Shown piece by piece: positions 50,357-64,000 of a stretch of 64,000 nt of DNA (positions are counted from its first letter, which is position 1; each line of letters starts with the position of its first letter). The notes below the pieces were generated by a model, which was given only the letters and a program-made list of their open reading frames with translations, did no database searches and was not told the origin of the DNA. This stretch comes from an uncultured Bacillales bacterium. GTDB lineage: Bacteria > Bacillota_I > Bacilli_A > RF39 > UBA660. The position numbers and the translations under genes are program-made. Where the stretch lies: NCBI GenBank assembly GCA_946539445.1, contig CAMNHK010000003.1:1746-65745 (forward strand), given 5' to 3'.

Positions 50357-50383
50357 AAAAAGAAACAAATTTGTTTCTTTTTT
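50357..50383. terminator. Bidirectional terminator between tspO and the histidine kinase gene
   Basis: AGAAACA-aatt-TGTTTCT palindrome flanked by an A-run and a T-run. Confidence 0.5.
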
Positions 50384-52880
50384 ATTCTGCAATTGGATTA
50401 TGTTCAACGTAGGTTCTCGCAATTTCCAACACTTTATGATATTCCTCTTCTAAACGAGAAAAATTATTCATAACAAAATCAGAATCATTATCTTTACTCT
50501 TTAGTTCATGTTCATAAGCAATATCCGCAAGACTCATAAATCCTAAATATTTACAATCACTCTTCAAAGAATGAACCTCAATCGCATAATTTGGCATATC
50601 ATTTTTTTCTTTATACTCTAGAATTCGATTCCATTTTTCATCCACTTCATTCATAAAATCATGAATTGTCATATTATACATATCCATATCTCCAAGTAAT
50701 TCCAAAGCATGATTAATATCCGCACCATTCTTTTCTAAATAAGTACGATCATATACTTCTTCAGAATTAGGAACTTGAATATCCACAACTGGAATTAAAT
50801 CAACTTTTGGAACCATTTGTGGTTCTTCTTCTAACTGCTCTATTTCAGGAAGCGTATCCACTTCAATTGGATTCATGGAAATCGTTTTTTCCTTATAATT
50901 ACGCTCAACTTGATCTCCTAAAAGGTCTTCAATATTATCTTCTACTGGAATGATTCCATTCTTCTTTCTCTCTTCCTCAGCTTTATCATAATCCTCTGGA
51001 TTAGGAATTTCTTCACTTCGAATCGCCTCATTGGAAACACTTTCAGATGGAATCGGAATATCTTCTGTTACACTTCTTCCTAATAATTGATTAATAACTA
51101 GAATCAACTGTTCTTTTTCAATTGGTTTGGCTAAATAATCATCAAACCCTTCGGATAAGTATTTCTCTCTCATTCCCGTAACAGCATTAGCGGTTAAGGC
51201 AACAACTGGTGTTTTAAAATCAGCTATCTCTTTTAATTTTTTAAGAGTTTCAACTCCACTCATCTTTGGCATCATATCATCCAAAAGAATCAAATCGTAA
51301 ACCTCACCTCTTTGAATTCTCGCAACACAATCGAATCCACTATCACTAGTAACCAAACAATTTGCATTATAACGTCCTAATAACTTACAAGCAACTTTCA
51401 AATTTAATGGAGTATCATCTACTAACAAAATACGTACATTGTGTAAATCCAAAGTAGTTTTGACTTTCTTAGTTTCTTGAGCCGTTGACTTCTCAATTCT
51501 TTGATTTAAAACAACTGTAAATTTAGATCCTTCTCCATAAACCGTATGAACAATAATTTTTCCACCCATTAATTCAATTAACTGTTTTGTAATGGCAAGT
51601 CCAAGTCCCGTACCTTCAATCGTAGTATTTCGGTCTTCATCCAAACGTTGAAACTTCGTAAACATTTTATCGATACTTTCTTTCTTTATTCCTCGTCCAG
51701 AATCTTCAACTGAAATAATAAGCTTAGACACATCTTTTGTATTAATACAATTTACCTCATAATGAACAAAACCCTTATCCGTATATTTAGAAGCATTCGA
51801 AAGTAAATTCGTAACAATTTTTTTAAGATTAGCATGATCTCCAAATAAGGTTTGCGGTAAATCAGGCGCAATCTTATAAGTAAAATCAAGTCCCTTTTCA
51901 TTCATCTTAGGAGTAATCAATTTTGCAAGTTCCAAGAATGTTTCAGGAGCATTATATTTCGAATTAACAATTTCAATCTTACCGGCTTCTATTTTAGAAA
52001 TATCCAAAATACCATTAACAATCTCTAATAAAGTTTGACTAGCATTAACAATATCTTTCGCATTTTCCTGAGCCTCATCTAACGTATTAGCATCCATAAT
52101 ACAATCACTAAAACCAACAATAGCATTTAATGGAGTACGAATTTCATGAGACATACTAGATAAGAAATCTGTCTTAGCACGATTAGCCTTATCAGCCTGC
52201 TCACGAGCTACTTCCAATTCTTGAATCATCTTAACATCAGGATTTTCAATAGTAAAGTACATAACATAATTAATAAATGTCAAAGAAATTGAAACAACCA
52301 CTAAATATGGATTATATGAAAATATAAAAAATAACAATACAATTAAACAAGTTGTAGCAATAACAGGTATATGGCGAAGAGTAATTCTTTTATAATTAAT
52401 CAACGTAACTACAATTGAAGCAACGATAAAAATAGCACAAATAAAATAATTGATAGTTACTGACAAACCTTCAATACTAAAATTTCCATTTTGTGATATC
52501 ACATTGATATCGGTGAAAAAAATAGCCAACATAAATAACACATTGCTAAATATTAATGGATACTTAATTTTTCTAATAATATCAGTTAATGAAGAATAAT
52601 TTATTAAAACATTATATAGCAAAAAGCAATTTGCAAAAACAATCAAACAGCAAAAATCAATTTTATTAAAAAGTTGTATATAAAACAAATGCTTTTCAGG
52701 GCCACTTATGATAGCAATAGAATGAACTGTAGTAACCAAAATGCTATCTATGACACTACAAATCAACATAATAGAATATATTTTATTCTCAACCAAATCT
52801 ATTCTTTCTTTTGAAAAGTAAACAAATAAAAGCAATAATGAAAAAACTATCGAACAAATTGGCAATAAAACACCAGACAC
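50382..52880 (-). CDS. Hybrid sensor histidine kinase (TM sensor - HisKA - HATPase - REC - HPt)
   Basis: 832 aa. About 6-7 N-terminal TMs, H-box SHEIRTPLNAI, G-boxes DSGRGI and GTGLGLAI. Receiver domain ILLVDDTPLN...DLILLDDMMPKMSG...ALTA...K, and a C-terminal HPt-like EVHSLKSDCKYLG. Confidence 0.88.
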   Translation of the reverse strand: MSGVLLPICSIVFSLLLLFVYFSKERIDLVENKIYSIMLICSVIDSILVTTVHSIAIISGPEKHLFYIQLFNKIDFCCLIVFANCFLLYNVLINYSSLTDIIRKIKYPLIFSNVLFMLAIFFTDINVISQNGNFSIEGLSVTINYFICAIFIVASIVVTLINYKRITLRHIPVIATTCLIVLLFFIFSYNPYLVVVSISLTFINYVMYFTIENPDVKMIQELEVAREQADKANRAKTDFLSSMSHEIRTPLNAIVGFSDCIMDANTLDEAQENAKDIVNASQTLLEIVNGILDISKIEAGKIEIVNSKYNAPETFLELAKLITPKMNEKGLDFTYKIAPDLPQTLFGDHANLKKIVTNLLSNASKYTDKGFVHYEVNCINTKDVSKLIISVEDSGRGIKKESIDKMFTKFQRLDEDRNTTIEGTGLGLAITKQLIELMGGKIIVHTVYGEGSKFTVVLNQRIEKSTAQETKKVKTTLDLHNVRILLVDDTPLNLKVACKLLGRYNANCLVTSDSGFDCVARIQRGEVYDLILLDDMMPKMSGVETLKKLKEIADFKTPVVALTANAVTGMREKYLSEGFDDYLAKPIEKEQLILVINQLLGRSVTEDIPIPSESVSNEAIRSEEIPNPEDYDKAEEERKKNGIIPVEDNIEDLLGDQVERNYKEKTISMNPIEVDTLPEIEQLEEEPQMVPKVDLIPVVDIQVPNSEEVYDRTYLEKNGADINHALELLGDMDMYNMTIHDFMNEVDEKWNRILEYKEKNDMPNYAIEVHSLKSDCKYLGFMSLADIAYEHELKSKDNDSDFVMNNFSRLEEEYHKVLEIARTYVEHNPIAE

Positions 52881-54148: not shown

Positions 54149-54517
54149 TTATTTTTCTAATCGATACAAAGAAATTACATTCATTTTCCAAAATCGATCC
54201 GATTTATCAAAAGCTACTCGATCAATGACTGGGAATAAATGATAATCTTCATCACGGTAACAAAAAATACCATACTTTCCACCATCTAATGATAAATCAT
54301 TTACTATAACAGGTTCTTCCTCTATTTTGGTGTACCCGTTTTTTTCAAAATACTTTTCAAAAACTTCTGTTACATTATAAGAGTCATATCCTAAGGATTC
54401 CGCTATTGATAGTAAGTCTCTTCGAACAGTCAAATAATCCTTTTCGAGTAGTTTCATAAAGGTTCGAATCACACAATCACAGTTCTTAATAGCTGGATTG
54501 TATTCTTGAAACTTCAT
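54149..54517 (-). CDS. Small papain-fold protein resembling a standalone C39-type peptidase domain
   Basis: Start at MKFQEYNP (ATG 54517 after AGAGGTGA). 122 aa. Q-x8-CDCVIRTFMKLL (Gln then Cys nucleophile context), then DYHLFPVIDRVAFDKSD (His then Asp). Spacing and size resemble bacteriocin-leader C39 domains. Motif-level inference only. Confidence 0.35.
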   Translation of the reverse strand: MKFQEYNPAIKNCDCVIRTFMKLLEKDYLTVRRDLLSIAESLGYDSYNVTEVFEKYFEKNGYTKIEEEPVIVNDLSLDGGKYGIFCYRDEDYHLFPVIDRVAFDKSDRFWKMNVISLYRLEK

Positions 54518-54607
54518 ACTATCACCTCTATCACTATTTATCATAATGAATAATCATTTCTTTTTCAAGTAAAAAGTGCTAAAATAAGAAACTAAAGAAG
54601 GGATACT

Positions 54608-56197
54608 ATGGAAGAGATTAGAAAAGACGCCAATCCAAAAGATACCATAAAAAGAATTAAAAAAATATTAAAATCCTTATCCATTCAAACAACCGAGAAA
54701 AAAATCAAAAACATTCATAAAAAATTCTATTCCGTTCGCCTCGAAATCAAAGGCTTTTATCATATGGGAACCAATGGTAAAGGATTAACCAAAAATCTAG
54801 CCAGAGCGTCAGCTTATGCAGAATTAATGGAACGCCTATCTTCTAGAATTTTAATAAATACCTATTATCTTGGAAAAGAAAAGAATCTTTATAGTTTTAC
54901 AGATGAAACAGAAAAGAAAACATCCCAATTACCTTTAACATCCTTTTTAGAAAAAGATTTTTCTCTAGATTCGAAAAAATATCAAATTACTTCTACATTT
55001 CATAATGTTTTTCAAAATAAAGAAGAATATTTACCAATTAAATTAATCAATGCAACATCTTTCTCAAATGGACTATGTGCAGGAAATAGCTATCAAGAAG
55101 CAACATCACAAGGAATTTGTGAAGTATTAGAACGTTTTTGTTACCGAACAATTTTGGAAGAAGAAAAACCTCTTAGTACCATAACACTCGATGAGACAAT
55201 ATCCATCAATAAAAGAATTCAATACTTAGAATCTCTGGGATATACCATAAAAGTAAAAGATTGCAGTCTAGGAAAATATCCAGTGATTGGAGTTTTAATA
55301 TTAGATCATACAAAAGAAAACTATATTTTTACCGTTGGAAGTGATGCCAACATAAATATAGCCATTCAAAGATGTTTAACCGAAGCTTTTCAAGGACTTA
55401 AAAATGAAAAACAATTAAATCAAAAAATGAAACCAATAAAGAATAATTTCTCAAATCTAACAGAGTCTGAAAAAAAGACAAACTGGTTAAAATGCTATGC
55501 CAGCAATAACGGAATACATCCACAAATACTATGGCAAGAAAAAAAGACTCTTTCCTATAAAACAATAAAAGTATTTCAAGAGAAAAAAGATAATACATCA
55601 AACTATGAATATCTATTATCAATCTTAAAGAAAAATCATTTAGACTTATATATAAAAGATTATTCGTATTTAGATTTTCCAGTCTACAAAGTATTTATTC
55701 CTCTTTTATCCAATGTAGACTGTCCTCAAAAAGAAGAATCTTCCCTACTAAACCATCAAGAAAAAATACGAGATATTTATTTTGATCTAACAAAAGAATA
55801 TTCCAAAAAAGAAATACAGGAAGCGATAAACTCCATAAAACCAGTTTTATCGAATGAAAAATATAAATTTATGAATATGGGAAACTATTTTCATTCTTCT
55901 TATTTCTTAAAAACAAACTATAATACCATTTCATTTGAATTGTTCTATCTACTATTAAATTATAAAATCCATACATCCATAAAAGATCTATCATGGATAA
56001 GCAATCCTGTATTAAAAGAATACATTCAAAAAATAGATAGTCAAAGGATAGATAATAAGTTTTCTTATATCATAAAGGACTTAAACTTAAAGACACCAAC
56101 TTGTCCAAACTGTGAAGACTGTCCATGTCGTAGAAATTGTAAATATAAGAATTGGAAAAAAATCAATGAATCATTAAAAAAGAAAGAAACCAATTAA
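54608..56197 (+). CDS. ycaO: YcaO-domain protein (standalone) with Cys-rich C-terminal tail
   Basis: 529 aa. GTNGKGLTKNLARASAYAELMERLSS and SNGLCAGNSYQEATSQGICEVLERF are the two hallmark YcaO ATP/Mg-binding segments. Tail is TPTCPNCEDCPCRRNCKYKNW. Confidence 0.85.
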   Translation: MEEIRKDANPKDTIKRIKKILKSLSIQTTEKKIKNIHKKFYSVRLEIKGFYHMGTNGKGLTKNLARASAYAELMERLSSRILINTYYLGKEKNLYSFTDETEKKTSQLPLTSFLEKDFSLDSKKYQITSTFHNVFQNKEEYLPIKLINATSFSNGLCAGNSYQEATSQGICEVLERFCYRTILEEEKPLSTITLDETISINKRIQYLESLGYTIKVKDCSLGKYPVIGVLILDHTKENYIFTVGSDANINIAIQRCLTEAFQGLKNEKQLNQKMKPIKNNFSNLTESEKKTNWLKCYASNNGIHPQILWQEKKTLSYKTIKVFQEKKDNTSNYEYLLSILKKNHLDLYIKDYSYLDFPVYKVFIPLLSNVDCPQKEESSLLNHQEKIRDIYFDLTKEYSKKEIQEAINSIKPVLSNEKYKFMNMGNYFHSSYFLKTNYNTISFELFYLLLNYKIHTSIKDLSWISNPVLKEYIQKIDSQRIDNKFSYIIKDLNLKTPTCPNCEDCPCRRNCKYKNWKKINESLKKKETN

Positions 56198-56216
56198 AGT
56201 TTCTTTCTTTTTGTTT
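56176..56216. terminator. Bidirectional terminator built from the overlapping 3' ends of two convergent genes
   Basis: Perfect 10-bp inverted repeat AGAAAGAAAC (56181..56190) / GTTTCTTTCT (56199..56208). It brackets the overlapping stops (TAA 56195..56197 on plus, TAA 56196..56194 on minus), with an A-run on the left and a T-rich stretch on the right. Confidence 0.6.
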
Positions 56217-57939
56217 TATCAATCTCTACAGTACCCTGATTTCCATCTACGGTTAATACATCCTCTTCCCATAGTTTTTTCATAGCTTTTGGTCCAACAC
56301 CAATAACACATGGAATTCCTAATTCACGAGCAATAATCGCCGCATGACATAAGAATCCACCAACTGTCGTAACAATAGCAGAAGATTTCGATAAAATGTG
56401 CATCCATTCTGGATCCGTAAACCAAGCAAGTAAAATATCTCCTTCTTGCCAATCCGTTACTTGATTAATCTTACGAGCATTTACAAAGCGAGCAGGCGCC
56501 GTAACTCTACCAGGAGAAGCCGGAATACCAGAGAATACTTCCTTATCAGAAGACTCTACTTGATCCAAAATATCAATCTTAGAAGTAACAGGACGATACT
56601 GTAACATAACAAGATGTCCATCTAATATCATCCATTCAAAATCAGCTACTTCGGAAGAATGATTCGTTACCATATCTTGATACTTTAGTAACAATTCCCC
56701 AACAACTCCATCTTTACAAGTCAAAGACTCTTCTTTACAAACACCATTTTCCCAAATCTCACATTTTGGAGTCATACGTCCGGATACAAGTTTCTCACCA
56801 TTTCCCCTTACATGCTCCAAATAACCACTCTTGTCATCTTTTCCAATCCAAACACCAGCATATTCTGGTTCTACATATTTTTGAATGACAACAGCCATAT
56901 TAGGCTGCTCCAAATGATTGGTAACAATATATTGTTGAAGTCTAGAATTATTCTTAGAATCAATTACTTTTTTCGTTTTCTTTAATAAATTATCATAAGT
57001 AACATCCAAATAAGAATCAAACATTCCTGCAAAAGAATTCTTTTCACCATCTTCAATATCAGCAGAACTACGAACCGAATAATGAATATCCAAATCTAAA
57101 TCAGCAAACAAATCCCAGTTTACCTCATTCGAATTAACAGGAATGACATAACTCTCAGGGATTGGTAAATTATGGGCAGATAATACCGCTAATCCATAAG
57201 CTTTTCCCCCTACTAATTTTATCATTTCACGGTCTAATCCAGCCAAATAGTATTTCTTTAATTCTTCCATCGAGATGAGAGGTTTTTTCGACAAATCATA
57301 AAAAGCACGATATAAAATTGGATCTTCAATTTCCACATCTACTGGTAGTGGTTTTTCTTCTCGATATACTTCATCCATTTTCATTAAAACTGGCTCAATA
57401 ACACTTTGATAATATCCATGTTGTTTGTCTTGCCATTTCTTTAATATTAAATATTTTTGAAGCAATTCATCCTGATCATCGATCGATCCATCTTTTTCTT
57501 CTTGCAATACCTTCTTACCATCTACGGATAAATTCCCTTTATCGAAGGAAGCAATAACATCCAAATAAGAATCTCCATATTTTTCTCTTATTTTTTGAAT
57601 TAAATTCGTAGCAAAAGAAGCAAGTTCATCTAACGATTCCAATAGTCCATAATAAACCAAAGCTTTCTCAATCATTTCATAATAATGATCAGACTCTTGC
57701 GCTTGTTGCAAATAATAATTTGTCTTATCCCTTAACTCTTGCATCGTTTGATCTAATTCCTCGGCCGAAATATCATTCGAAATATCAACATATTTCAAAA
57801 CATCTTCTAATAAGTCTTCATCATTCATACATTCAAGTAGAATTCTACTAGACCAAGTAGTTAAATCTTCCGGGAAAAATCGATCACAATGATTTTTCTT
57901 AAAATCATAAAACTTTTCAAAACTAACACTTTTTTCCAT
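56194..57939 (-). CDS. PEP-utilising enzyme family protein (PPDK-type ATP-grasp N-domain plus swivel phosphohistidine domain)
   Basis: 581 aa. VGGKAYGLAVL (PPDK_N nucleotide-binding motif) and C-terminal TDPEWMHILSKSSAIVTTVGGFLCHAAIIARELGIPCVIGV (mobile His domain). Confidence 0.85.
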   Translation of the reverse strand: MEKSVSFEKFYDFKKNHCDRFFPEDLTTWSSRILLECMNDEDLLEDVLKYVDISNDISAEELDQTMQELRDKTNYYLQQAQESDHYYEMIEKALVYYGLLESLDELASFATNLIQKIREKYGDSYLDVIASFDKGNLSVDGKKVLQEEKDGSIDDQDELLQKYLILKKWQDKQHGYYQSVIEPVLMKMDEVYREEKPLPVDVEIEDPILYRAFYDLSKKPLISMEELKKYYLAGLDREMIKLVGGKAYGLAVLSAHNLPIPESYVIPVNSNEVNWDLFADLDLDIHYSVRSSADIEDGEKNSFAGMFDSYLDVTYDNLLKKTKKVIDSKNNSRLQQYIVTNHLEQPNMAVVIQKYVEPEYAGVWIGKDDKSGYLEHVRGNGEKLVSGRMTPKCEIWENGVCKEESLTCKDGVVGELLLKYQDMVTNHSSEVADFEWMILDGHLVMLQYRPVTSKIDILDQVESSDKEVFSGIPASPGRVTAPARFVNARKINQVTDWQEGDILLAWFTDPEWMHILSKSSAIVTTVGGFLCHAAIIARELGIPCVIGVGPKAMKKLWEEDVLTVDGNQGTVEIDKTKRKKL

Positions 57940-57943
57940 ATAA

Positions 57944-59464
57944 TCACTCCTTATTAATACTAAAACATTTTTTATCTAGAAATAGATAATCACATCGATT
58001 TAAAATCGATGGTTTGATAACTTGCAATTTACGAATCTTAGGAATCCAATAAAACATTTTTAAAAAAAATGTTAAAGTCCTCCTTCGATCCCCTGGAAAT
58101 CTAGAAATTAACCCTATTCCTGGATAAGAAATATTTTTCTCATGTGCCAAGCAAGAATTACGAACTAATTGAAATAAGTTCAAACCAAATAAATCCAAAT
58201 AAGGACAATGCTGAATAAACCACAAAGTTCGCATAATAGCAAAAATGGGTTCTTTAGGATATCCTATCATAAAGGTAGCCGATACGGTAACATTTTGTTG
58301 AGAAAAATTCTTTAAAACTGGTTTAATACTGTCTAAAGATATTCCTTTCCTCATGTCTTGTAATATTTTTTTATTATAACTTTCAATTCCAAAAGATACA
58401 AAAGAACAACCACTTCGAACCAATAATGAAACTATTTCAGGATCCTGATATTTTCCATCGATTCTGGTTTCCATCATCCACTTTAAAGAAATAGAATGAT
58501 CCACAAAGTATTGTGCAACTTCCACAATTTGATCAACCGGAATGCACTCATCTAAAAATACAATGACATCCATTTTATTTTCCTGATACATTTTTCGAAT
58601 CATTTGACAAATCTTTTTTGTATGGAGCTGTTTATAATTTCCATAATAGTAATAATGGGCACAAAACTTACATTGATGGTGATAGCAACCATAATTTAGG
58701 ATAAGTGGTAATATTCTTTCACGGGATAGATAATGATCCAATGAAAGAAACGAAAAATCAACTGGATAATGAAATACATCATCATCAATATCAGAAGTAA
58801 CTTCAAGGAAATCCTCTTTCCATAAAATCGTATTTTTCAAAGAAACTTTCTTGCCCTGAAAAAACTGAATACACTGATAAATCGTAATTAAATGACCAAA
58901 TAATACAATAGCATCCACACATTGAATTTTATCTAACAGTTCTTTCCCATTTTGATGAATTTGCGTAACATAATTACCACCCCAAATAATAATTACTTGA
59001 GGATTTTTTTCTTTGATTTTTTTTGCGAATCTTATCGCAAAAGGAATTTGATAACCAAAAGGAATTTCCATAAAAACAATATCTTGATCTTGATAATTCT
59101 CCATTGGAAATAAATCAACAAATGGATGTATATCTCGACTAACTTCTAAAAAATCATCCATAGACTGAATCTTCTTATCATAAGAAAACTGACGATGAAA
59201 AGACATATGAAAAGGTTTTAAAAAATCCTGAAATGCCTTTAAAAAATGTTGATTGGCTTCTAATAAATCGATTTTAGAATCTCGAATTTGACTCATCGCA
59301 GAGCATAATGCCTCATCATGAATCGCAATCGAATTTAAAAAATAACCCGTCAAATCCACAAACACATTTTCAACATTCTTTTGATCCAAATAGTTTTTCA
59401 ATAAAACATTACGGACATCTGGATATTGTAAGTTCTCACTTGGAAGAGTATAAATATATATCAT
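57944..59464 (-). CDS. B12-binding-domain radical SAM protein
   Basis: Start at MIYIYTLPSE (ATG 59464 after GAAAGGTG; ATGA overlap with the upstream stop). N-terminal Rossmann-like segment IVFMEIPFGYQIPFAIRFAKKIKEKNPQVIIIWGGNYVTQ. Cluster motif NYGCYHHQCKFCAHYY (Cx4Cx2C). Confidence 0.72.
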   Translation of the reverse strand: MIYIYTLPSENLQYPDVRNVLLKNYLDQKNVENVFVDLTGYFLNSIAIHDEALCSAMSQIRDSKIDLLEANQHFLKAFQDFLKPFHMSFHRQFSYDKKIQSMDDFLEVSRDIHPFVDLFPMENYQDQDIVFMEIPFGYQIPFAIRFAKKIKEKNPQVIIIWGGNYVTQIHQNGKELLDKIQCVDAIVLFGHLITIYQCIQFFQGKKVSLKNTILWKEDFLEVTSDIDDDVFHYPVDFSFLSLDHYLSRERILPLILNYGCYHHQCKFCAHYYYYGNYKQLHTKKICQMIRKMYQENKMDVIVFLDECIPVDQIVEVAQYFVDHSISLKWMMETRIDGKYQDPEIVSLLVRSGCSFVSFGIESYNKKILQDMRKGISLDSIKPVLKNFSQQNVTVSATFMIGYPKEPIFAIMRTLWFIQHCPYLDLFGLNLFQLVRNSCLAHEKNISYPGIGLISRFPGDRRRTLTFFLKMFYWIPKIRKLQVIKPSILNRCDYLFLDKKCFSINKE

Positions 59465-60453
59465 TGTACACCTTTCATTCTTTCCACAACTATCTGTGAA
59501 AAACGCAAATCTGCAATCCATATTTTAATAAAATAAACATCTTGAAGATGAAAACTTTGAATACCAGGTAATCCTCTTAAAGCATCAGAATATTTTTTAT
59601 AATAAAATTCATTGGCAACAACAAAGGTAATAAAATTAGCTTCACTCGCATAAATTGTAAGATTCTTTTCATCTTTTAAAGCTTCATAAAGATAATTTCT
59701 ATTATTCTTCATATACTCAATGGTATTGGAAAAGATATTCAAAATCTTTTCATCTTGAAGTAAGGCAACACAAAACCTTGAAGAATAAGTAGAAATAGAA
59801 TGTGGTGGAAGAAGAGTATTTCGAAAATCTTTCATATCTCGTATAGTAACAAGATAACCAACTCTTAATCCAGATAAGAAGTATTTTTTCGAAAAACTTC
59901 TTAAAATCATGATACGCTCATTTTCTTTTGCCAAGTTGATAAGACCATCCGGCTCATTAGAAAATGATATATAGGCTTCATCGATTAAAATGACACCAGA
60001 AAAACAATGAAGAATGGTATCAATTTGTTCCATTGAGAATTTCTCTCCACTAAACCATCTAGGAGATGAAATACATAAAAAGTCATTTTTGCTGCTTTTA
60101 TAATTTGCTAACTTTTCCACAAAATCGTGACAAGATAAACTAGGAATTTCCACAATATCTTTCTTGTCTTTATAGCAAGATACTCCCCTCGTGTAAAGGC
60201 CAAATTCCGGAGTAGCTAAGAAAACTCTATTCCAACACTTTAACGATAATAAAGTAGGAATAAATTGACTGCTTCCAGCCCCTACATAAATATAATTTTT
60301 GTCTACTCCAATTTTTTTGGATATTTCTTCTAATAATGGATCTGATAATTGATCCATCATATCAAAATTAAAATTCCCGTCAAAAAACTTTTTTTGATTT
60401 TTCAAAACCCATTTTCTTAATATTTTGTTATCATTCCAAACAGATGAAGCCAT
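59461..60453 (-). CDS. Class I/II PLP-dependent aminotransferase or decarboxylase (HisC/CobD-like)
   Basis: Start at MASSVWNDN (ATG 60453 after GGGAGGTG). IDEAYISF and PLP-lysine motif LRSFSKKYFLSGLRVGY. Confidence 0.85.
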   Translation of the reverse strand: MASSVWNDNKILRKWVLKNQKKFFDGNFNFDMMDQLSDPLLEEISKKIGVDKNYIYVGAGSSQFIPTLLSLKCWNRVFLATPEFGLYTRGVSCYKDKKDIVEIPSLSCHDFVEKLANYKSSKNDFLCISSPRWFSGEKFSMEQIDTILHCFSGVILIDEAYISFSNEPDGLINLAKENERIMILRSFSKKYFLSGLRVGYLVTIRDMKDFRNTLLPPHSISTYSSRFCVALLQDEKILNIFSNTIEYMKNNRNYLYEALKDEKNLTIYASEANFITFVVANEFYYKKYSDALRGLPGIQSFHLQDVYFIKIWIADLRFSQIVVERMKGVQ

Positions 60454-60467
60454 ATATACACCTCCCA

Positions 60468-60608
60468 TTAGCAAGAATCAGAACAGTAGTTTCCTCCCAA
60501 TTCAGCTAAAACCACTTTATTATTTGGGAATAAAGTTGTTACTTTTTCTTTAGAGAACAAATTCTTAAAGAAATTGGCAATCTTTTTCGTACTATCACCT
60601 CCTTTCAA
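60468..60608 (-). CDS. Candidate precursor peptide B (46 aa if TTG start; not in ORF track)
   Basis: Hand-translated. TTG at 60608 (AAGGGGA 10 nt upstream) to TAA at 60470..60468 gives (M)KGGDSTKKIANFFKNLFSKEKVTTLFPNNKVVLAELGGNYCSDSC. No in-frame ATG or GTG. A very strong AAAGGAGGTGA lies just inside, so the true start is uncertain. Fills the 171-nt gap between the radical SAM and PLP-enzyme genes. Confidence 0.45.
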   Translation of the reverse strand: MKGGDSTKKIANFFKNLFSKEKVTTLFPNNKVVLAELGGNYCSDSC

Positions 60609-60624
60609 TCTAATTAGTTCCCCT

Positions 60625-61806
60625 TTAGCGTTCCATTCGTCTTTTAACAGCTAGACAAACTCGGCTATTATTATTTTCTTTAGCAATCAGTTTTAAAAAC
60701 TGAAATCTTTTTTTGCTAGACCATACAGTAGCAAAATCTTCTTGTAACAAATTTCCTAAACAGTACTCGGTAATAAAAGGACAGCAGAATACATTTCCAT
60801 TATAGTCAATCGTACATTTACCAATTCCAGCAGAACACTTCCACTGTTCTTTTTGTAAATGTTTTTGTCCATCTTTTCCGAGCAGAAATACTTCACTACT
60901 TTCTCCCTCATCTGGCATCTCTGCATATAACAGCTTAGCGCCAGAATCTAAAGAAGAAAGAACTTCTCTTAATTTTTCCATAAATACTTTATGTTCTTCG
61001 GTATCTAATTTCATATCACTAGTAGCATTTCCAGAATCAATTAAATTCGATATTTGAATTTTATAGACTCCCATTTGATATAGAGTTCGATATAACTCAG
61101 GAATTTGTAAATAATTCATTCGAGACAATACAGAGTTTGTAGTAATTCGATATCCCTTATCAATCATTTTTTGAATATTTCGAATGGTCTTTCGATAATT
61201 CCCTTTTCCACGAATGAAATCATGCGCTTTTTCATCCCCATCAACACTGATAAAGAAATCGAGTTGCTTCGATGGAATCATTCCTAATTCTTTTTCCAAT
61301 TTCTTAGAAAAAGAATCTAACAATATAGCATTCGTAAAAATATTAACTTTAATGTCGTTTTTCAAAAGTTTCGCAACAATCTCCGGTAAGGAAGCAACAA
61401 CCAATGCTTCTCCTCCTGTAATCGTAACTTCCAAGACATTACTATCAATAATTCTATCCGCGATTTTCATTAAATCATTTCTTGGCAATTCCGTAAAATC
61501 CAAATCACCTAAGTAGCAATGTTTGCAATGTAAATTGCAACGATTCGTTACCTTCCATTGAACTTTCAAAGGAAAATCTAGAGAAATATTATCATCATAA
61601 TATTCAATGTTCTGAATTTCTTTTCTCAACATGTGAAGTTCTCTACGCAAAGAAAACGAATTACGATTTAACACTCTCGCCATTTCTCCAATAGTAGTAT
61701 TTTCAAAATAAGCATTTAATAAATCAAAAGTATATTCATTCACAACATAATACTTATTATCATGTTGAATAATATATTGATCATTTCCAATCGATCTTTT
61801 TCTCAT
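60625..61806 (-). CDS. Radical SAM enzyme with N-terminal RRE/PqqD-like domain and partial (twitch-like) auxiliary-cluster domain
   Basis: 393 aa. WKVTNRCNLHCKHCY (CxxxCxxC) and TGGEAL. C-terminal WKCSAGIGKCTIDYNGNVFCCPF without the full CX2CX5CX3C. N-terminal ~70 aa (YYVVNEYTFDLLNAYFENTTIGEMARVL) look like a winged-helix peptide-recognition element. Confidence 0.88.
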   Translation of the reverse strand: MRKRSIGNDQYIIQHDNKYYVVNEYTFDLLNAYFENTTIGEMARVLNRNSFSLRRELHMLRKEIQNIEYYDDNISLDFPLKVQWKVTNRCNLHCKHCYLGDLDFTELPRNDLMKIADRIIDSNVLEVTITGGEALVVASLPEIVAKLLKNDIKVNIFTNAILLDSFSKKLEKELGMIPSKQLDFFISVDGDEKAHDFIRGKGNYRKTIRNIQKMIDKGYRITTNSVLSRMNYLQIPELYRTLYQMGVYKIQISNLIDSGNATSDMKLDTEEHKVFMEKLREVLSSLDSGAKLLYAEMPDEGESSEVFLLGKDGQKHLQKEQWKCSAGIGKCTIDYNGNVFCCPFITEYCLGNLLQEDFATVWSSKKRFQFLKLIAKENNNSRVCLAVKRRMER

Positions 61807-63062
61807 AACCGTACCTCAATAATTCCATCTAAATATAAAGTAATGATAAAATCTTTCATATTAGATATTTTAGGATAAAGAGCAAGTATTTCTTCTCCCG
61901 TTTTTTCCCCATTAAGAGAAGATAAAGTATGATATCCAATAGAATTGATTTTCCTTAGTGGAACACTTATAAGCAAATAATTCTTTTTTTCTTTTCGAAT
62001 CATTACATTTTTCATTATTAATTTTTGATTATGAATCTTTTCCCAAACCTGCTCTTCTTTTTGTAGTAGCAAAGCATCACATGTATGAAGAAAGAACTTC
62101 CCATCTCCTTCCGCATGACATCCACCCTTACACTTTAAGAAAGACTTACAAATCTGACAAGTATTTGGTAGCCAATTCAATTGATAAAATTTTCTTAGTT
62201 CAGGACCATGTAATAGTTTAGAAAGCTTCGTTTGAAAAACATTTCCCAATATATAATTAGAAGATGGACAGATTTTTACATCCCCATTTGCTTCTATCGC
62301 AAACATAGTCTGCCCTGCCCCACAAGAATGAGTTAAATACTGATACTTAGGATCACAACTGCAAGGACTAATACAATTACTAATCGAAATCTTAGAATAC
62401 TCTTGCTTAAGTTTATGGATTTTTTCTAAATAAAGATTAGGATTAATTACTTCGTCTTCTTTTGCATTTCCTAAATAATTAAGTCTTCCAAAACAAACTT
62501 CTAGGTTTCTTTTTTTGGCAAATTCCACTACATATTCCATATTCTTCCCGTGAATCGTATTGAAACTTAAAGTACAGTTAAGTAAAAGAGAAAGATTAGG
62601 ATAATCTTTTAGAAGAATATCAATACTTTTTTGAACACGAGAAAAAGTATGATTCACTCCACATAATGCATCATGACATTTAGGTGTACCATGTAAGGAT
62701 ATTCCAATCGTTTGAACCATTGATAAAATATCCACATCATCCAACAAATGAACTCCATTCGTAACTAACGTTTGATGAAATCCTAGTTCCTGACCATATT
62801 TTAATAATGGTTTAATAGAAGGATATAGTAATGGTTCTCCTCCCGTATAAGTAATGGATACAACACCCATCTGTTTTAATTCCGTTAATAAATTTTTAGC
62901 CGATTCAAAATCCATATGCCGTCTAGAAGCATATGCTTGCGAACAAAAGGAACACTTCAAATCACAAGCTCCTGTTACTTTTAAATAAACATTTACAGGC
63001 GCCATTAAAGTATTCAATGAATAAAAACTATCTACGTTAACCGACTCTACCAAAGCTTCCAT
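61803..63062 (-). CDS. Radical SAM/SPASM enzyme with C-terminal RRE/PqqD-like domain
   Basis: 419 aa. LKVTGACDLKCSFCSQ (CxxxCxxC) and TGGEPLL. SPASM region SCGAGQTMFAIEANGDVKICPS plus CQICKSFLKCKGGC (CX2CX5CX3C). C-terminal YHTLSSLNGEKTGEEILALYPKISNMKDFIITLYLDGIIEV is PqqD-like. ATGA overlap with the next gene. Confidence 0.9.
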   Translation of the reverse strand: MEALVESVNVDSFYSLNTLMAPVNVYLKVTGACDLKCSFCSQAYASRRHMDFESAKNLLTELKQMGVVSITYTGGEPLLYPSIKPLLKYGQELGFHQTLVTNGVHLLDDVDILSMVQTIGISLHGTPKCHDALCGVNHTFSRVQKSIDILLKDYPNLSLLLNCTLSFNTIHGKNMEYVVEFAKKRNLEVCFGRLNYLGNAKEDEVINPNLYLEKIHKLKQEYSKISISNCISPCSCDPKYQYLTHSCGAGQTMFAIEANGDVKICPSSNYILGNVFQTKLSKLLHGPELRKFYQLNWLPNTCQICKSFLKCKGGCHAEGDGKFFLHTCDALLLQKEEQVWEKIHNQKLIMKNVMIRKEKKNYLLISVPLRKINSIGYHTLSSLNGEKTGEEILALYPKISNMKDFIITLYLDGIIEVRL

Positions 63063-63063
63063 A

Positions 63064-63180
63064 TTACTTCACCTTTTTGTCCACTAAAATAAGTCGACAC
63101 TGAGTCATATCAGGACGTAATTCTTTAATAAAAATTTTCTTTCGTTTTCGACGAAAGATAGAAAAAAGTTTTTGAAACAT
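63064..63180 (-). CDS. Candidate precursor peptide A / small basic leader ORF (38 aa; not in ORF track)
   Basis: Hand-translated. ATG 63180 (AGGAAGATAGGTG upstream) to TAA 63066..63064, one nt before the ATG of the SPASM gene. Product is MFQKLFSIFRRKRKKIFIKELRPDMTQCRLILVDKKVK. An in-frame upstream ATG at 63210 would add MIPQEDRCIV. Confidence 0.4.
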   Translation of the reverse strand: MFQKLFSIFRRKRKKIFIKELRPDMTQCRLILVDKKVK

Positions 63181-63226
63181 AACGATACACCTATCTTCCT
63201 GAGGTATCATATTCCTTCGAGTTTAT

Positions 63227-63255
63227 ACTATAATCATGTTCGAACATTCTGTCAA
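63227..63255 (-). promoter_or_regulatory. SigA-type promoter of the radical SAM operon with palindromic spacer
   Basis: Minus strand TTGACA (63255..63250), 17 nt, then TATAGT (63232..63227). The spacer contains the perfect 12-bp palindrome ATGTTCGAACAT (63236..63247). Confidence 0.55.
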
Positions 63256-63288
63256 CCTCTATCATAAAAAAAAGAACAAAAAGACTAA

Positions 63289-64000
63289 TTAGCCTCTAAG
63301 TTCCTCTAATTTTTCTTGAAATTCTTGTGGAGCATCCACTTGAAAAAACAATTCTTTTCCTGTTCTTGGATGCTGGAAACGAATAGAATAAGAATGCAAC
63401 ATTTGCCCAAACTCCGTACACTTTCCCCTTCCATATAAAGGATCATTTAAAACAGGATAACCAATATAAGCCATATGAACACGAATTTGATGAGTTCTTC
63501 CGGTTTCTAGCCTACACTCAATATATGTATGATTTTGAAATCTTTCTAAAACTCTAAAATGAGTGACAGCTTCTTTTCCATGAACATCGGTAACTGCCAT
63601 CTTTTGCCGATTATTAGAGTCTCTTCCGATAGGAGCATCTATTTCTCCTGTATCATGCTTAATAACCCCCTCAACAATTGCCACGTATTTTCTTTCAACT
63701 TCTTTAGAAGCAATCATTTCGGATAGTTTTTCATGAGTCCACTCATTTTTAGCAACTAGCATCAATCCACTTGTATCCTTATCCAAACGATGAACAATTC
63801 CAGGGCGACTTGCTTCACCACTTGTTAATTTATAACGATATAGTAAAGCATTTACCAAAGTTCCTGTATAATGACCAGGAGCTGGATGAACAACCATTCC
63901 ACTGGCTTTATTCAAAACAATTAAATCATCATCTTCATAAACAATATCAAGAGGTAAATCTTCTGCGACAACATGTAACTCATAATCCAAATCCTCTTCC
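63289..64000 (-). CDS. RluA-family 23S rRNA pseudouridine synthase (RluD-like), N-terminus outside the window
   Basis: VNKASGMVVHPAPGH and the catalytic motif HRLDKDTSGLMLVAKN, then GRTHQIRVHMA. The frame stays open to position 64000. Confidence 0.88.
   Translation of the reverse strand, partial: EEDLDYELHVVAEDLPLDIVYEDDDLIVLNKASGMVVHPAPGHYTGTLVNALLYRYKLTSGEASRPGIVHRLDKDTSGLMLVAKNEWTHEKLSEMIASKEVERKYVAIVEGVIKHDTGEIDAPIGRDSNNRQKMAVTDVHGKEAVTHFRVLERFQNHTYIECRLETGRTHQIRVHMAYIGYPVLNDPLYGRGKCTEFGQMLHSYSIRFQHPRTGKELFFQVDAPQEFQEKLEELRG

What the first reader, a model, noticed from the sequence alone, without database searches (positions are those of the whole stretch)
60468..60608. Hidden short ORF ending in a double-glycine-like motif followed by a 7-residue Cys-containing core (NYCSDSC)
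The 171-nt gap between the second radical SAM gene and the PLP-enzyme gene is fully occupied by a minus-strand frame encoding ...STKKIANFFKNLFSKEKVTTLFPNNKVVLAELGG-NYCSDSC-stop. VVLAELGG resembles the L-x-x-E-L-x-x-x-GG end of double-glycine leaders cleaved by C39 peptidases, and a C39-like protein is encoded 6 kb away. The short core has two Cys, two Ser, Asp, Asn and Tyr. These are donor and acceptor residues for sactionine/ranthionine thioethers, YcaO heterocyclisation or thioamidation, and phosphorylation. Oddity: the frame has no ATG or GTG. The only canonical start is TTG at 60608 (AAGGGGA upstream). One of the strongest SD sequences in the window (AAAGGAGGTGA, 60590..60600) lies just downstream of that TTG, with only ACG (7 nt) or ATT (16 nt) following in frame. 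The stop overlaps an ATG (TAATG).
Basis: seen in the sequence. Interest (0 to 1): 0.7.

Follow-up and report, generated by a model that had tools for sequence, protein, structure and literature searches.

The report
Unannotated RiPP precursor peptide with mutated start
The short hidden reading frame is a real, evolutionarily conserved gene for a small peptide that neighbouring radical-SAM enzymes almost certainly modify, belonging to an undescribed family from gut and rumen bacteria, but in this species its normal start codon has mutated to ACG.

Summary
The ORF is real. It belongs to a small, uncharacterised family of 37-42 aa peptides: 17 clusters at 90% identity, and 20 representatives among 1.84 billion proteins. 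Close members end in ...GGNYCxDxC-COOH. Remote members end in ...GNGNCSDCC or ...LQCTECC, so the invariant part is C-[ST]-[DE]-x-C at the very C-terminus. In the last 11 codons pS is about 0.87 and pN about 0.085, which shows strong purifying selection on this frame. Every related locus examined keeps the peptide beside the same pair of radical SAM/SPASM enzymes. One of these has a predicted N-terminal RRE and resembles SkfB, SuiB and CteB. A HisC-like aminotransferase and a B12-radical SAM enzyme usually accompany them. The Bacilli-type loci also carry a PEP-utilising enzyme, a YcaO and a second conserved peptide (KELRPDMTQCR). Relatives start at ATG or GTG just after the GGAGGTGA Shine-Dalgarno. 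All six assemblies of this species have ACG there. The upstream TTG is only the Shine-Dalgarno read in frame. A sister species has deleted the cluster. The double-glycine/C39 reading is weak: motif spacing is wrong, GG is not invariant, and no PCAT transporter is present. However, the 131-aa neighbour has a weak papain/C39-like fold and recurs beside one distant cluster. The chemistry is unknown.

The parts
60468..60590 (-). Peptide B: the precursor ORF as defined by homology (40 codons plus TAA). Its first codon is ACG, where relatives have ATG or GTG.
   Evidence: it aligns end to end with called 37-42 aa genes P0121-P0137. All six assemblies of this species carry ACG.
60471..60491 (-). Conserved C-terminal core NYCSDSC. 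The family invariants are Y-C-x-D-x-C-COOH, and in remote clades C-[ST]-[DE]-x-C-COOH.
   Evidence: pS about 0.87 against pN about 0.085 over the last 11 codons.
60595..60605 (-). Strong Shine-Dalgarno AAAGGAGGTGA serving the homologous (ACG) start, with 7 nt between GGAGG and ACG.
   Evidence: the same SD and spacing precede ATG or GTG in L084, L087, L089, L090 and L094. The region is unstructured (z = +1.0).
60591..60608 (-). Possible N-terminal extension (M)KGGDS from the in-frame TTG 60608. This is the SD region read in frame.
   Evidence: the KGG[DE] reading is also seen in L089, L090, L094, L096 and L005. L084 has an in-frame TAG upstream of its ATG, so it is not a conserved start.
60619..60625 (-). 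AAGGGGA, a weak SD-like element 10-11 nt upstream of TTG 60608. It is specific to this lineage.
   Evidence: alignment: L089 and L090 have A/T-rich sequence here. A compensatory role is only an inference.
60625..61806 (-). Radical SAM/SPASM enzyme 2 with an N-terminal RRE-like domain (residues 3-66, beta3-alpha3).
   Evidence: Pfam Radical_SAM and SPASM. AF2 pLDDT 85. Top PDB matches are SkfB, SuiB and CteB.
61803..63062 (-). Radical SAM/SPASM enzyme 1, with a C-terminal extension of about 90 aa and unknown fold.
   Evidence: It is always adjacent to enzyme 2 in related loci.
63064..63180 (-). Peptide A: a second conserved small ORF, MFQKLFSIFRRKRKKIFIKELRPDMTQCRLILVDKKVK. It lies directly upstream of rSAM1.
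   Evidence: present in all Bacilli-type loci, with P-[DE]-M-T-Q-C-R invariant. Absent from L006.
63227..63255 (-). Best sigma-70-like promoter match (TTGACA-17-TATAGT), upstream of peptide A. Likely operon start.
   Evidence: 11 of 12 matches. This is a consensus match only.
59461..60453 (-). HisC/CobD-like PLP aminotransferase. The SFSK lysine motif is present.
   Evidence: Present in all related loci except L092/L093, including the remote L006.
57944..59464 (-). B12-binding radical SAM enzyme.
   Evidence: Absent only from L089 and L092/93.
56194..57939 (-). PEP-utilising-family enzyme: PPDK_N ATP-grasp domain, swivelling His domain, and an unknown 270-aa N-terminal domain.
   Evidence: The catalytic His context GGFLCHAAIIARELGIP is visible in the sequence.
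54608..56197 (+). Stand-alone YcaO, convergent with the operon.
   Evidence: Conserved in all Bacilli-type loci. A bidirectional terminator lies at 56177..56212.
54149..54517 (-). Small protein of 122 aa from its conserved Met. It has conserved Cys/His/Asp and a weak papain/C39-like predicted fold. Its link to the cluster is uncertain.

Best explanation
The ORF encodes a genuine ribosomal precursor peptide ('peptide B', 40 aa from the homologous start) of an undescribed RiPP-type gene cluster family. The family occurs in uncultured gut and rumen Bacilli/Clostridia.

Shown:
- The reading frame, a basic amphipathic N-terminal leader (M-x-K-[IL]-[IF]..K..[ILV]-F..K...L-F) and an invariant extreme C-terminus (Y-C-x-D-x-C-COOH here, C-[ST]-[DE]-x-C-COOH family-wide) are kept under purifying selection.
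- The gene always travels with the same pair of radical SAM/SPASM enzymes. At least one of these carries an RRE-type peptide-binding domain.

Inferred:
- The leader docks on the RRE.
- The two SPASM enzymes act on the C-terminal Cys/Asp motif. The likeliest reaction is Cys-to-Asp (or Asn) thioether cross-linking of the ranthipeptide/QhpD type, and/or oxidative processing of the obligatory C-terminal Cys as MftC does for a C-terminal Tyr.
- The near-universal HisC-like aminotransferase then interconverts an amine and a carbonyl on the peptide. In several lineages it is fused head-to-tail with a SAM methyltransferase. The precedents are MbnN at an N-terminus and the daptide enzymes at a C-terminus.
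- The B12-radical SAM enzyme adds C-methyl groups.
- The YcaO and PEP-utilising enzymes, found only where the second peptide (peptide A) is present, perform ATP-dependent activation on one of the two peptides.

In this species the ancestral ATG has become ACG. The peptide can therefore only be made at a low level from ACG behind the strong SD, or as a 6-residue-longer form from the upstream TTG with a weak SD.
For: - Family and frame conservation.
- Synteny with rSAM1/rSAM2 in all 20+ loci spanning 29-100% rSAM2 identity.
- The remote cluster L006 (cultured Clostridiaceae bacterium M8S5) has a precursor ending QCTECC next to homologous rSAM1, rSAM2, aminotransferase and B12-rSAM, plus an ABC-2 exporter and an M16 peptidase. 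This is a complete RiPP cluster architecture.
- RRE topology and SkfB/SuiB/CteB as best structural matches.
- Start-codon homology.
- ACG can initiate at about 0.1-1% of AUG in E. coli: bioRxiv 10.1101/063800.
- Aminotransferase precedents: PMC8788703 and PMC10036551.
Against: - No product, transcript or translation data exist.
- The chemistry is inferred only from enzyme families. All NCBIfam hits are far below the family cut-offs.
- No protease or exporter is conserved across the Bacilli-type loci.
- The ACG start, together with loss of the whole cluster in a sister species, may mean the peptide is no longer made here.
- Which of the two conserved peptides each enzyme uses is unknown.
- The link of peptide A to YcaO and the PEP-utiliser rests on a single contrasting locus (L006).
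Confidence: 0.8

Rival explanations
1. The peptide gene is being silenced in this species. ATG to ACG is a start-loss mutation, the precursor is effectively not made, and the cluster is in early decay.
For: - ACG sits at the homologous start in all six assemblies.
- ACG initiates at 1% or less of AUG in E. coli.
- Gene callers skip the ORF in these assemblies.
- A sister species has deleted peptide A through the PEP-utiliser and keeps only a YcaO relic lacking residues 174-354.
- Within-species polymorphism in the B12-rSAM is mostly non-synonymous (2-4 synonymous against 5-7 non-synonymous).
Against: - The ORF, its strong SD and every conserved residue are intact.
- All enzymes are full length.
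- rSAM2 (6 synonymous, 0 non-synonymous) and the PEP-utiliser (10, 0) are still under purifying selection within the species.
- An in-frame TTG with a lineage-specific AAGGGGA lies upstream.
- The initiation region is unstructured.
Confidence: 0.3
2. This is a double-glycine-leader bacteriocin or pheromone. The leader is cut after ELGG by a C39-type cysteine peptidase (the 131-aa neighbour), and the 7-residue NYCSDSC product is exported.
For: - GG precedes the conserved core in most members.
- The 131-aa protein has conserved Cys/His/Asp and weak fold matches to Josephin-2 (E 0.011) and to the C39 domains of PCAT1, ComA and LahT150 (E 0.018-0.9; TM 0.43-0.53).
- A homologue sits next to the cluster in L004.
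Against: - The motif spacing is wrong. E-L abuts GG, and positions -4 and -12 are E and P, not hydrophobic.
- GG becomes SG or GC in close family members, and the remote clade has MAGNG.
- No PCAT or C39-ABC transporter is present in any locus.
- The 131-aa gene is absent from L084, L087, L089, L090, L092, L094, L096 and L104 within the fetched flanks. It persists in the sister species that lost the cluster.
- It has no Pfam, NCBIfam or PDB-sequence match.
Confidence: 0.12
3. Peptide B is a disposable scaffold for an intracellular small molecule or cofactor, as PqqA and MftA are. Only the C-terminal residues are transformed and then excised.
For: - Very short, extremely conserved C-terminal motif with an obligatory terminal residue.
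- No conserved exporter, immunity gene or protease in the Bacilli-type loci.
- The best NCBIfam similarities of the two SPASM enzymes include MftC and PqqE.
- An aminotransferase is typical of small-molecule tailoring.
Against: - The MftC and PqqE scores are far below cut-off (100.9 against 265; 74 against 381).
- The remote L006 cluster has an ABC-2 exporter and an M16 peptidase, as for a secreted peptide.
- The clusters are patchily distributed and easily lost, which is unlike an essential cofactor.
Confidence: 0.2
4. Peptide A (KELRPDMTQCR) is the principal substrate. Peptide B is a secondary substrate or partner in a two-peptide system.
For: - Peptide A is first in the operon and abuts rSAM1 in every Bacilli-type locus.
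- Its 20-residue block is more conserved than the enzymes.
- In L005 and L096 it is in frame with the B12-rSAM ORF.
Against: - L006 keeps rSAM1, rSAM2, the aminotransferase and B12-rSAM with only a peptide-B-like precursor and no peptide A.
- Peptide B is equally universal.
- The two readings are not mutually exclusive.
Confidence: 0.15
5. It is a chance ORF or a non-coding spacer.
For: No canonical ATG at the expected start. Not called by gene finders in this species.
Against: - Frame, length and C-terminal motif are conserved across loci whose enzymes are only 29-66% identical.
- pN/pS is about 0.1.
- There are 20 family representatives in an exhaustive HMMER search.
- No Rfam family matches.
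Confidence: 0.01

Closest known systems
Ranthipeptides / SCIFF and sactipeptides (maturases CteB, PapB, SkfB, AlbA; also QhpD)
   Same: - A short precursor lies next to RRE-radical SAM-SPASM maturases.
- The core is Cys-rich with Asp/Asn as possible acceptors. PapB and QhpD make Cys-Asp thioethers (established knowledge).
- SkfB and CteB are among the best structural matches of rSAM2.
   Different: - NCBIfam scores are far below cut-off (PapB 64 against 340, SkfB 65 against 300, AlbA 74 against 850).
- Two SPASM enzymes are present, together with an aminotransferase, B12-rSAM, YcaO and a PEP-utilising enzyme.
- The conserved motif must be at the extreme C-terminus.
- A second conserved peptide is present.
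Mycofactocin (MftA/MftB/MftC) and PQQ (PqqA/D/E)
   Same: - A tiny precursor is modified at its conserved C-terminal residues by an RRE-dependent SPASM radical SAM enzyme.
- Most loci have no dedicated exporter.
- MftC and PqqE are among the top (sub-threshold) NCBIfam hits.
   Different: - The C-terminus is C-x-D-x-C, not G-V-Y, and there is no E...Y pair.
- MftB/D/E/F and PqqB/C are absent.
- Scores are well below cut-off.
Daptides (C-terminal Thr converted to ketone, then amine, then N,N-dimethylamine)
   Same: - An invariant C-terminal residue.
- An aminotransferase, with an adjacent methyltransferase in L005, L096, L104 and L006.
- The same logic of C-terminal carbonyl formation followed by transamination and methylation (PMC10036551).
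   Different: - Daptide aminotransferases are class III (PF00202). Here the enzyme is HisC-like class I/II (PF00155).
- The terminal residue is Cys, not Thr.
- The oxidative decarboxylase would have to be a radical SAM enzyme, and there is no DapB/DapC.
Methanobactin MbnN (repurposed HisC aminotransferase)
   Same: A HisC-family PLP enzyme inside a RiPP cluster for a Cys-containing peptide. MbnN deaminates the N-terminal residue of the core (PMC8788703; Park et al. 2018 as cited in PMC10352776).
   Different: No MbnB/MbnC (DUF692/MNIO), no TonB-type uptake genes, and a Firmicutes host. The direction and site of transamination here are unknown.
Double-glycine leader peptides with C39 peptidase-ABC transporters (PCAT/AMS; ComA, LahT)
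   Same: GG lies immediately before the conserved core in most members. A small neighbour protein has a weak C39-like predicted fold.
   Different: The leader consensus spacing is not met, GG is not invariant, and no PCAT transporter is present. The putative peptidase is not a conserved part of the cluster.

Membership tests
RiPP precursor recognised by RRE-radical SAM/SPASM maturases (generic class) | Short ORF genetically linked to, and co-conserved with, the maturase genes | tested here: met
   Present beside rSAM1/rSAM2 in every related locus examined, from 29 to 100% rSAM2 identity.
RiPP precursor recognised by RRE-radical SAM/SPASM maturases (generic class) | Maturase carries an RRE (PqqD-like winged helix, beta3-alpha3) | tested here: met
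   The AF2 model of rSAM2 has strands 3-7, 10-15 and 18-22, then helices 24-35, 39-45 and 50-66. The best full-length PDB matches are the RRE-bearing SkfB, SuiB and CteB. The Pfam PqqD model does not hit. The C-terminal domain of rSAM1 was not modelled.
RiPP precursor recognised by RRE-radical SAM/SPASM maturases (generic class) | Radical SAM core plus SPASM auxiliary-cluster domain | tested here: met
   PF04055 and PF13186 are above their gathering scores in both enzymes.
RiPP precursor recognised by RRE-radical SAM/SPASM maturases (generic class) | Peptide is actually bound and modified | not testable with these tools
   Needs co-expression with mass spectrometry, or binding assays.
Double-glycine leader / C39-PCAT system | Leader consensus with hydrophobic residues at -4, -7 and -12, E at -8, and GG at -2/-1 | tested here: not met
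   In the window leader the positions are -1 G, -2 G, -3 L, -4 E, -7 V, -8 V and -12 P. E-L abuts GG.
Double-glycine leader / C39-PCAT system | GG (or GA/GS) cleavage motif invariant in the family | tested here: inconclusive
   GG is found in most members. SG (P0163, P0166) and GC (P0173) also occur, and the remote clade has MAGNG.
Double-glycine leader / C39-PCAT system | ABC transporter with an N-terminal C39 peptidase domain in the cluster | tested here: not met
   None in window 48-64 kb or in any related locus.
Double-glycine leader / C39-PCAT system | A C39-fold cysteine peptidase encoded nearby | tested here: inconclusive
   For the 131-aa protein there are no sequence-family hits. The AF2 model has pLDDT 81. 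Foldseek gives Josephin-2 at E 0.011, PCAT1 C39 at E 0.018, ComA at E 0.12 and LahT150 at E 0.9. It recurs in L004 but is retained after cluster loss in L100/L101.
Ranthipeptide (SCIFF/PapB-type) | Maturase reaches the NCBIfam equivalog threshold (PapB NF047865, cut-off 340) | tested here: not met
   50 and 64 bits.
Mycofactocin system | MftC equivalog score (TIGR03962, cut-off 265), an MftA with C-terminal GVY, and MftB/D/E/F | tested here: not met
   66.5 and 100.9 bits. The C-terminus is CSDSC, and no MftB/D/E/F-like genes are present.
Daptide | Invariant C-terminal Thr, class III aminotransferase (PF00202), and DapB (DUF-RRE) plus a DapC oxidative decarboxylase | tested here: not met
   C-terminal Cys. 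The aminotransferase is PF00155. No such partners are present.
TOMM / azoline-forming YcaO system | SagD-type YcaO (TIGR03604, cut-off 219) with an E1-like/ocin-ThiF partner and a dehydrogenase | tested here: not met
   The YcaO domain is present (PF02624 152 bits; TIGR00702 104 against 75.65), but TIGR03604 scores only 65.7. No partner genes are present.

The most novel reading that the evidence does not exclude
This may be a new RiPP class built from two co-conserved small peptides.

Peptide B's obligatory C-terminal C-[ST]-[DE]-x-C would be rebuilt by two SPASM radical SAM enzymes, possibly including radical-SAM oxidative processing of the terminal Cys. A repurposed HisC-type aminotransferase would then act on it, with N-methylation and B12-dependent C-methylation in some lineages.

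Peptide A (PDMTQCR) would be handled by a stand-alone YcaO and a PEP-utilising 'swivelling-histidine' enzyme. To my knowledge, and in the literature searches run here, that enzyme type has not been described in RiPP maturation.
Probability: 0.25. Interest if true: 0.8.

Novelty: new variant of a known kind. Interest (0 to 1): 0.62.

Why it matters
- **Missed annotation.** Automatic annotation misses this precursor in this species because of its non-canonical start. Without it the cluster looks like an orphan set of radical SAM enzymes.
- **Anchor for an unstudied family.** Recognising the peptide, its partner peptide A and the invariant C-terminal C-x-[DE]-x-C defines a rare enzyme set in herbivore and human gut Firmicutes. 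That set has two SPASM radical SAM enzymes, a B12-radical SAM enzyme, a HisC-like aminotransferase, a YcaO and a PEP-utilising enzyme. No Pfam or NCBIfam model and no paper in the searched library describes the family.
- **Direct experimental handle.** The work supplies a defined substrate sequence, a defined start, and a cultured carrier of a related cluster (Clostridiaceae bacterium M8S5). These could be used to look for new peptide chemistry.
- **Natural case of start-codon change.** It also shows ATG-to-ACG replacement behind an intact strong Shine-Dalgarno, in a lineage where a sister species has already deleted the cluster.

Tried and rejected
- Rfam scan of the whole window gave no hits, so no riboswitch or RNA element explains the gap.
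- Pfam and NCBIfam scans of peptides A, B and the L006 precursor at E up to 10 gave nothing.
- Full-text search for ELGGNYC, GGNYCSD, NYCSDSC, NYCSDCC and MTQCR gave no relevant paper. Searches for RiPP clusters combining YcaO, radical SAM/SPASM and PEP synthase or PPDK-like enzymes also gave none.
- Profile-profile comparison of peptide A against peptide B found only an 11-column N-terminal match (E 0.09). Homology of the two leaders is not demonstrated.
- The Pfam PqqD model on the rSAM2 N-terminus and the rSAM1 C-terminus gave no hit. The RRE call rests on the predicted structure.
- The metagenome scan with the L006 enzyme gave no further L006-type loci. The inference that peptide A goes with YcaO and the PEP-utiliser therefore rests on one contrasting locus.
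- RNA folding of the initiation region shows no significant structure (z = +1.0).
- I first noted the aminotransferase as absent from L004 and L005.
- The TTG 60608 start was rejected as the ancestral start. ATT was rejected because it lies 16 nt from the SD and does not correspond to the first codon in the DNA alignment.
Full report
**1. The observation**

The minus strand of 60468..60608 carries a 46-codon ORF. It translates to MKGGDSTKKIANFFKNLFSKEKVTTLFPNNKVVLAELGGNYCSDSC. It lies in the 171-nt gap between a radical SAM/SPASM gene (60625..61806) and a HisC-like aminotransferase. The aminotransferase's real start, by homology and by gene calls in identical contigs, is ATG 60453.

ACG follows GGAGG after 7 nt (60590..60588) and ATT after 16 nt. 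The statement that the frame has no GTG is slightly wrong: an in-frame GTG sits at 60515..60513, and there are internal TTGs. None of these is a credible start.

**2. The ORF is a conserved gene**

The adjacent radical SAM enzyme (rSAM2) has 163 relatives at E <= 1e-10, nearly all from gut or rumen metagenome assemblies. In loci where rSAM2 is 64-66% identical, gene callers already predict a 37-41 aa gene in the same gap:
- L084: MKKIIVAVKNIFAKNKTVELFATNKEATLSELGGNYCSDCC
- L087: (V)SKIISKVKSLFAKKRIVDLFENDNNATLAELGGNYCSDSC
- L089: MIKFIKNLLKRNKVTNLFPNNKVSLAELGGNYCQDSC
- L090: MVKFIKKIFSRKKIANLFSDKEVQLAELGGNYCSDSC

A profile search of 5.8 billion proteins found 17 clusters of such peptides. An exhaustive HMMER search of 1.84 billion representatives found 20. 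So the family is real but rare.

Over the last 11 codons of seven loci, synonymous sites are saturated (mean pS 0.87) while pN is 0.085. For the nine conserved codons pN is 0.034. The chance-ORF and RNA-element readings are excluded. Rfam also finds nothing in the window.

**3. What is conserved**

In the close clade the invariant residues are L20, F21 in the leader and E-L-G-G-N-Y-C-x-D-x-C at the C-terminus. The wider set relaxes this:
- EL can be QM, EM, QT or EC.
- GG can be SG or GC.
- N can be D or G.

That leaves Y-C-x-D-x-C-COOH as the invariant part of this clade.

In loci where rSAM2 is only 41-42% identical (L004, L005, L096/97, L104-106), the peptide sits after the PEP-utilising gene. 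There it reads M-I-K-F-L-K-K-L-F-K-K-D-S-N-V-L-I-N-L-N-N-V-N-K-T-L-S-M-S-M-A-G-N-G-N-C-S-D-C-C.

In the cultured Clostridiaceae bacterium M8S5 (L006, rSAM2 29% identical) the cluster contains two B12-radical SAM genes, a homologous HisC-like aminotransferase, and rSAM1 and rSAM2. It also contains an ABC-2 exporter, a methyltransferase and an M16 peptidase. Its precursor is MDEKKKNSKVAETTSVEELEVKIFEAEFENIETLSVNYGSVLQCTECC.

The family-wide invariant is therefore C-[ST]-[DE]-x-C, with the last Cys always the terminal residue.

**4. The start codon**

DNA alignment shows the same GGAGGTGA followed 4-5 nt later by ATG (L084, L089, L090, L094) or GTG (L087). The window has ACG at exactly that position. 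Five other assemblies of the same species carry it too: L001-L003, L098 and L099. They come from different samples and are about 0.5% divergent elsewhere in the cluster. ACG is therefore fixed in the sampled population and is not a sequencing error.

The TTG at 60608 lies 3 nt upstream of GGAGG, so a ribosome held by that SD cannot use it. The 'KGG[DE]' it encodes is simply the SD read in frame, and the same reading is visible in L089, L090, L094, L096 and L005. L084 has an in-frame TAG upstream of its ATG.

An AAGGGGA (60619..60625) lies 10-11 nt upstream of the TTG. It is absent from L089 and L090. It could be a weak replacement SD, but this is only an inference.

The initiation region is unstructured. 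In E. coli, ACG initiates at roughly 0.1-1% of AUG and TTG at 10-100% (bioRxiv 10.1101/063800). Expression here is probably much lower than in relatives. It comes either from ACG or, as a form 6 residues longer, from TTG.

**5. Context and likely mechanism**

The operon on the minus strand has its best promoter match at 63227..63255. Its gene order is:
- peptide A (63064..63180)
- rSAM1/SPASM
- rSAM2/SPASM
- peptide B
- HisC-like aminotransferase
- B12-radical SAM
- PEP-utilising-family enzyme

A convergent stand-alone YcaO lies behind a bidirectional terminator.

The AF2 model of rSAM2 (pLDDT 85) has an N-terminal beta3-alpha3 domain, which is the RRE topology. Its best PDB matches are the RRE-bearing RiPP maturases SkfB, SuiB and CteB.

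Peptide A (..I-[YF]-[IL]-K-E-[LV]-[RK]-P-[DE]-M-T-Q-C-R-[IVL]-[IV]-x-[VI]-[DN/E]..) precedes rSAM1 in all Bacilli-type loci. It is more conserved than the enzymes. It is missing from L006, which also lacks the YcaO and the PEP-utiliser. That suggests two modules, though the contrast rests on one locus:
- rSAM1, rSAM2, aminotransferase and B12-rSAM acting on the peptide-B type.
- Peptide A together with YcaO and the PEP-utiliser.

The aminotransferase is present in every locus except L092/93. A SAM methyltransferase abuts it in L005, L096/97 and L104-106, and one is present in L006.

Two precedents exist for PLP aminotransferases in RiPPs. The HisC-like MbnN deaminates the N-terminal residue of methanobactin (PMC8788703). 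The daptide pathway converts an invariant C-terminal Thr, through a ketone, to an amine that is then dimethylated (PMC10036551).

My best mechanistic guess has these steps, all of them inference from enzyme families:
- The leader binds the RRE.
- SPASM-catalysed Cys-Asp/Asn thioether formation and/or oxidative processing of the terminal Cys.
- Transamination, with methylation in some lineages.
- B12-dependent C-methylation.

Every NCBIfam similarity is far below the family cut-offs.

**6. The double-glycine/C39 idea**

The canonical leader has E(-8)L(-7)xxI(-4)xG(-2)G(-1). Here E-L sits at -4/-3, and positions -4 and -12 are E and P. GG is not invariant. No C39-ABC transporter occurs in any locus.

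The 131-aa neighbour has its conserved start at Met10, giving 122 aa. Its features are mixed:
- It has no Pfam, NCBIfam or PDB-sequence match.
- It has invariant or near-invariant Cys22/Cys24, His102 and Asp108.
- Its AF2 model (pLDDT 81) gives weak papain-fold matches: Josephin-2 (E 0.011, TM 0.53), PCAT1 C39 domain (E 0.018), ComA (E 0.12) and LahT150 (E 0.9). None reaches E <= 0.001.

The sister species (L100/L101) is clearly related: RluD is 83% identical and the histidine kinase 67%. There the gene survives (83% identity in the tblastn alignment), although peptide A through the PEP-utiliser are deleted. Only a YcaO relic lacking residues 174-354 remains.

The gene is also absent from the flanks fetched for L084, L087, L089, L090, L092, L094, L096 and L104. 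However, a 38%-identical homologue (E 2e-20) sits immediately upstream of the aminotransferase in L004. It is therefore at best an optional accessory. A leader-peptidase role cannot be excluded.

**7. Novelty**

No Pfam or NCBIfam model covers either peptide, and no paper in the searched library mentions them. No paper was found describing a RiPP cluster with this enzyme combination.

It is best classed as a new variant of a known kind: a RiPP precursor with RRE-radical SAM/SPASM maturases. There is a fair chance of new chemistry.

The within-species polymorphism pattern says that at least part of the cluster is still under selection. rSAM2 shows 6 synonymous and 0 non-synonymous changes and the PEP-utiliser 10 and 0, while the B12-rSAM shows 2 and 5. 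The ACG start and the deletion in the sister species keep the incipient-decay reading alive.

Noticed in passing
window 63064..63180 (-); also L004 6633-6779, L084 5634-5744, L089 7626-7742, L104 3968-4099: A second conserved small ORF, peptide A (MFQKLFSIFRRKRKKIFIKELRPDMTQCRLILVDKKVK), lies directly upstream of rSAM1 in every Bacilli-type locus. P-[DE]-M-T-Q-C-R is invariant, and the block is more conserved than the enzymes. It may be a second substrate or a partner peptide.
   Followed up: partly
L100 8874-9925 and L101 1975-3090 (sister species; syntenic with window 54149..63990): A related species keeps HSP20, RluD, the 121-aa protein and the hybrid histidine kinase. It has lost peptide A through the PEP-utilising gene. 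Only a YcaO relic matching residues 1-173 and 355-529 remains, so the cluster is being lost in this lineage.
   Followed up: yes
window 54149..54517 (-); L004 3467-3832: A small protein family has conserved Cys/His/Asp, a weak papain/C39-like predicted fold and no database family. It lies next to the cluster in two distantly related versions, but it also persists after cluster deletion.
   Followed up: partly
L005 4968-6737; L096 6010-7779: In these loci peptide A is in frame with the B12-radical SAM ORF and no stop separates them (589 aa in total). In L004, L104-106 and the window the two are separate genes.
   Followed up: no
L006 9485-9631 (Clostridiaceae bacterium M8S5, CP118523): A cultured isolate carries a remote version of the cluster: two B12-rSAM genes, HisC-like aminotransferase, rSAM1, rSAM2, a precursor ending LQCTECC, an ABC-2 exporter, a methyltransferase and an M16 peptidase. 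It has no YcaO, PEP-utiliser or peptide A. It is a tractable organism for experiments.
   Followed up: partly
L092 3080-10745: This variant cluster sits next to a phage-type integrase. It lacks the aminotransferase and B12-rSAM. Instead it has a hexapeptide-repeat acyltransferase and a metallo-beta-lactamase-fold gene. Peptide B lies after the MBL gene.
   Followed up: no
window 57944..59464 (-) compared with L001-3, L098, L099: Within-species polymorphism is mostly non-synonymous in the B12-radical SAM gene (2-4 synonymous against 5-7 non-synonymous). It is purely synonymous in rSAM2 (6 to 0, window against L001-L003) and in the PEP-utiliser (10 to 0). The counts are too small to conclude that constraint is relaxed.
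   Followed up: partly
window 56177..56212: A 14-bp A/T-rich hairpin flanked by T-runs on both strands lies between the convergent YcaO and PEP-utiliser genes. It is likely a bidirectional terminator.
   Followed up: no
window 50382..52880 (-); L104 13291-15171; L100 12593-15103: A hybrid histidine kinase/response regulator recurs just beyond the YcaO end of the cluster in the window lineage and in the distant L104 clade, often with an AMP-binding enzyme. It could reflect backbone synteny or a regulatory link.
   Followed up: no
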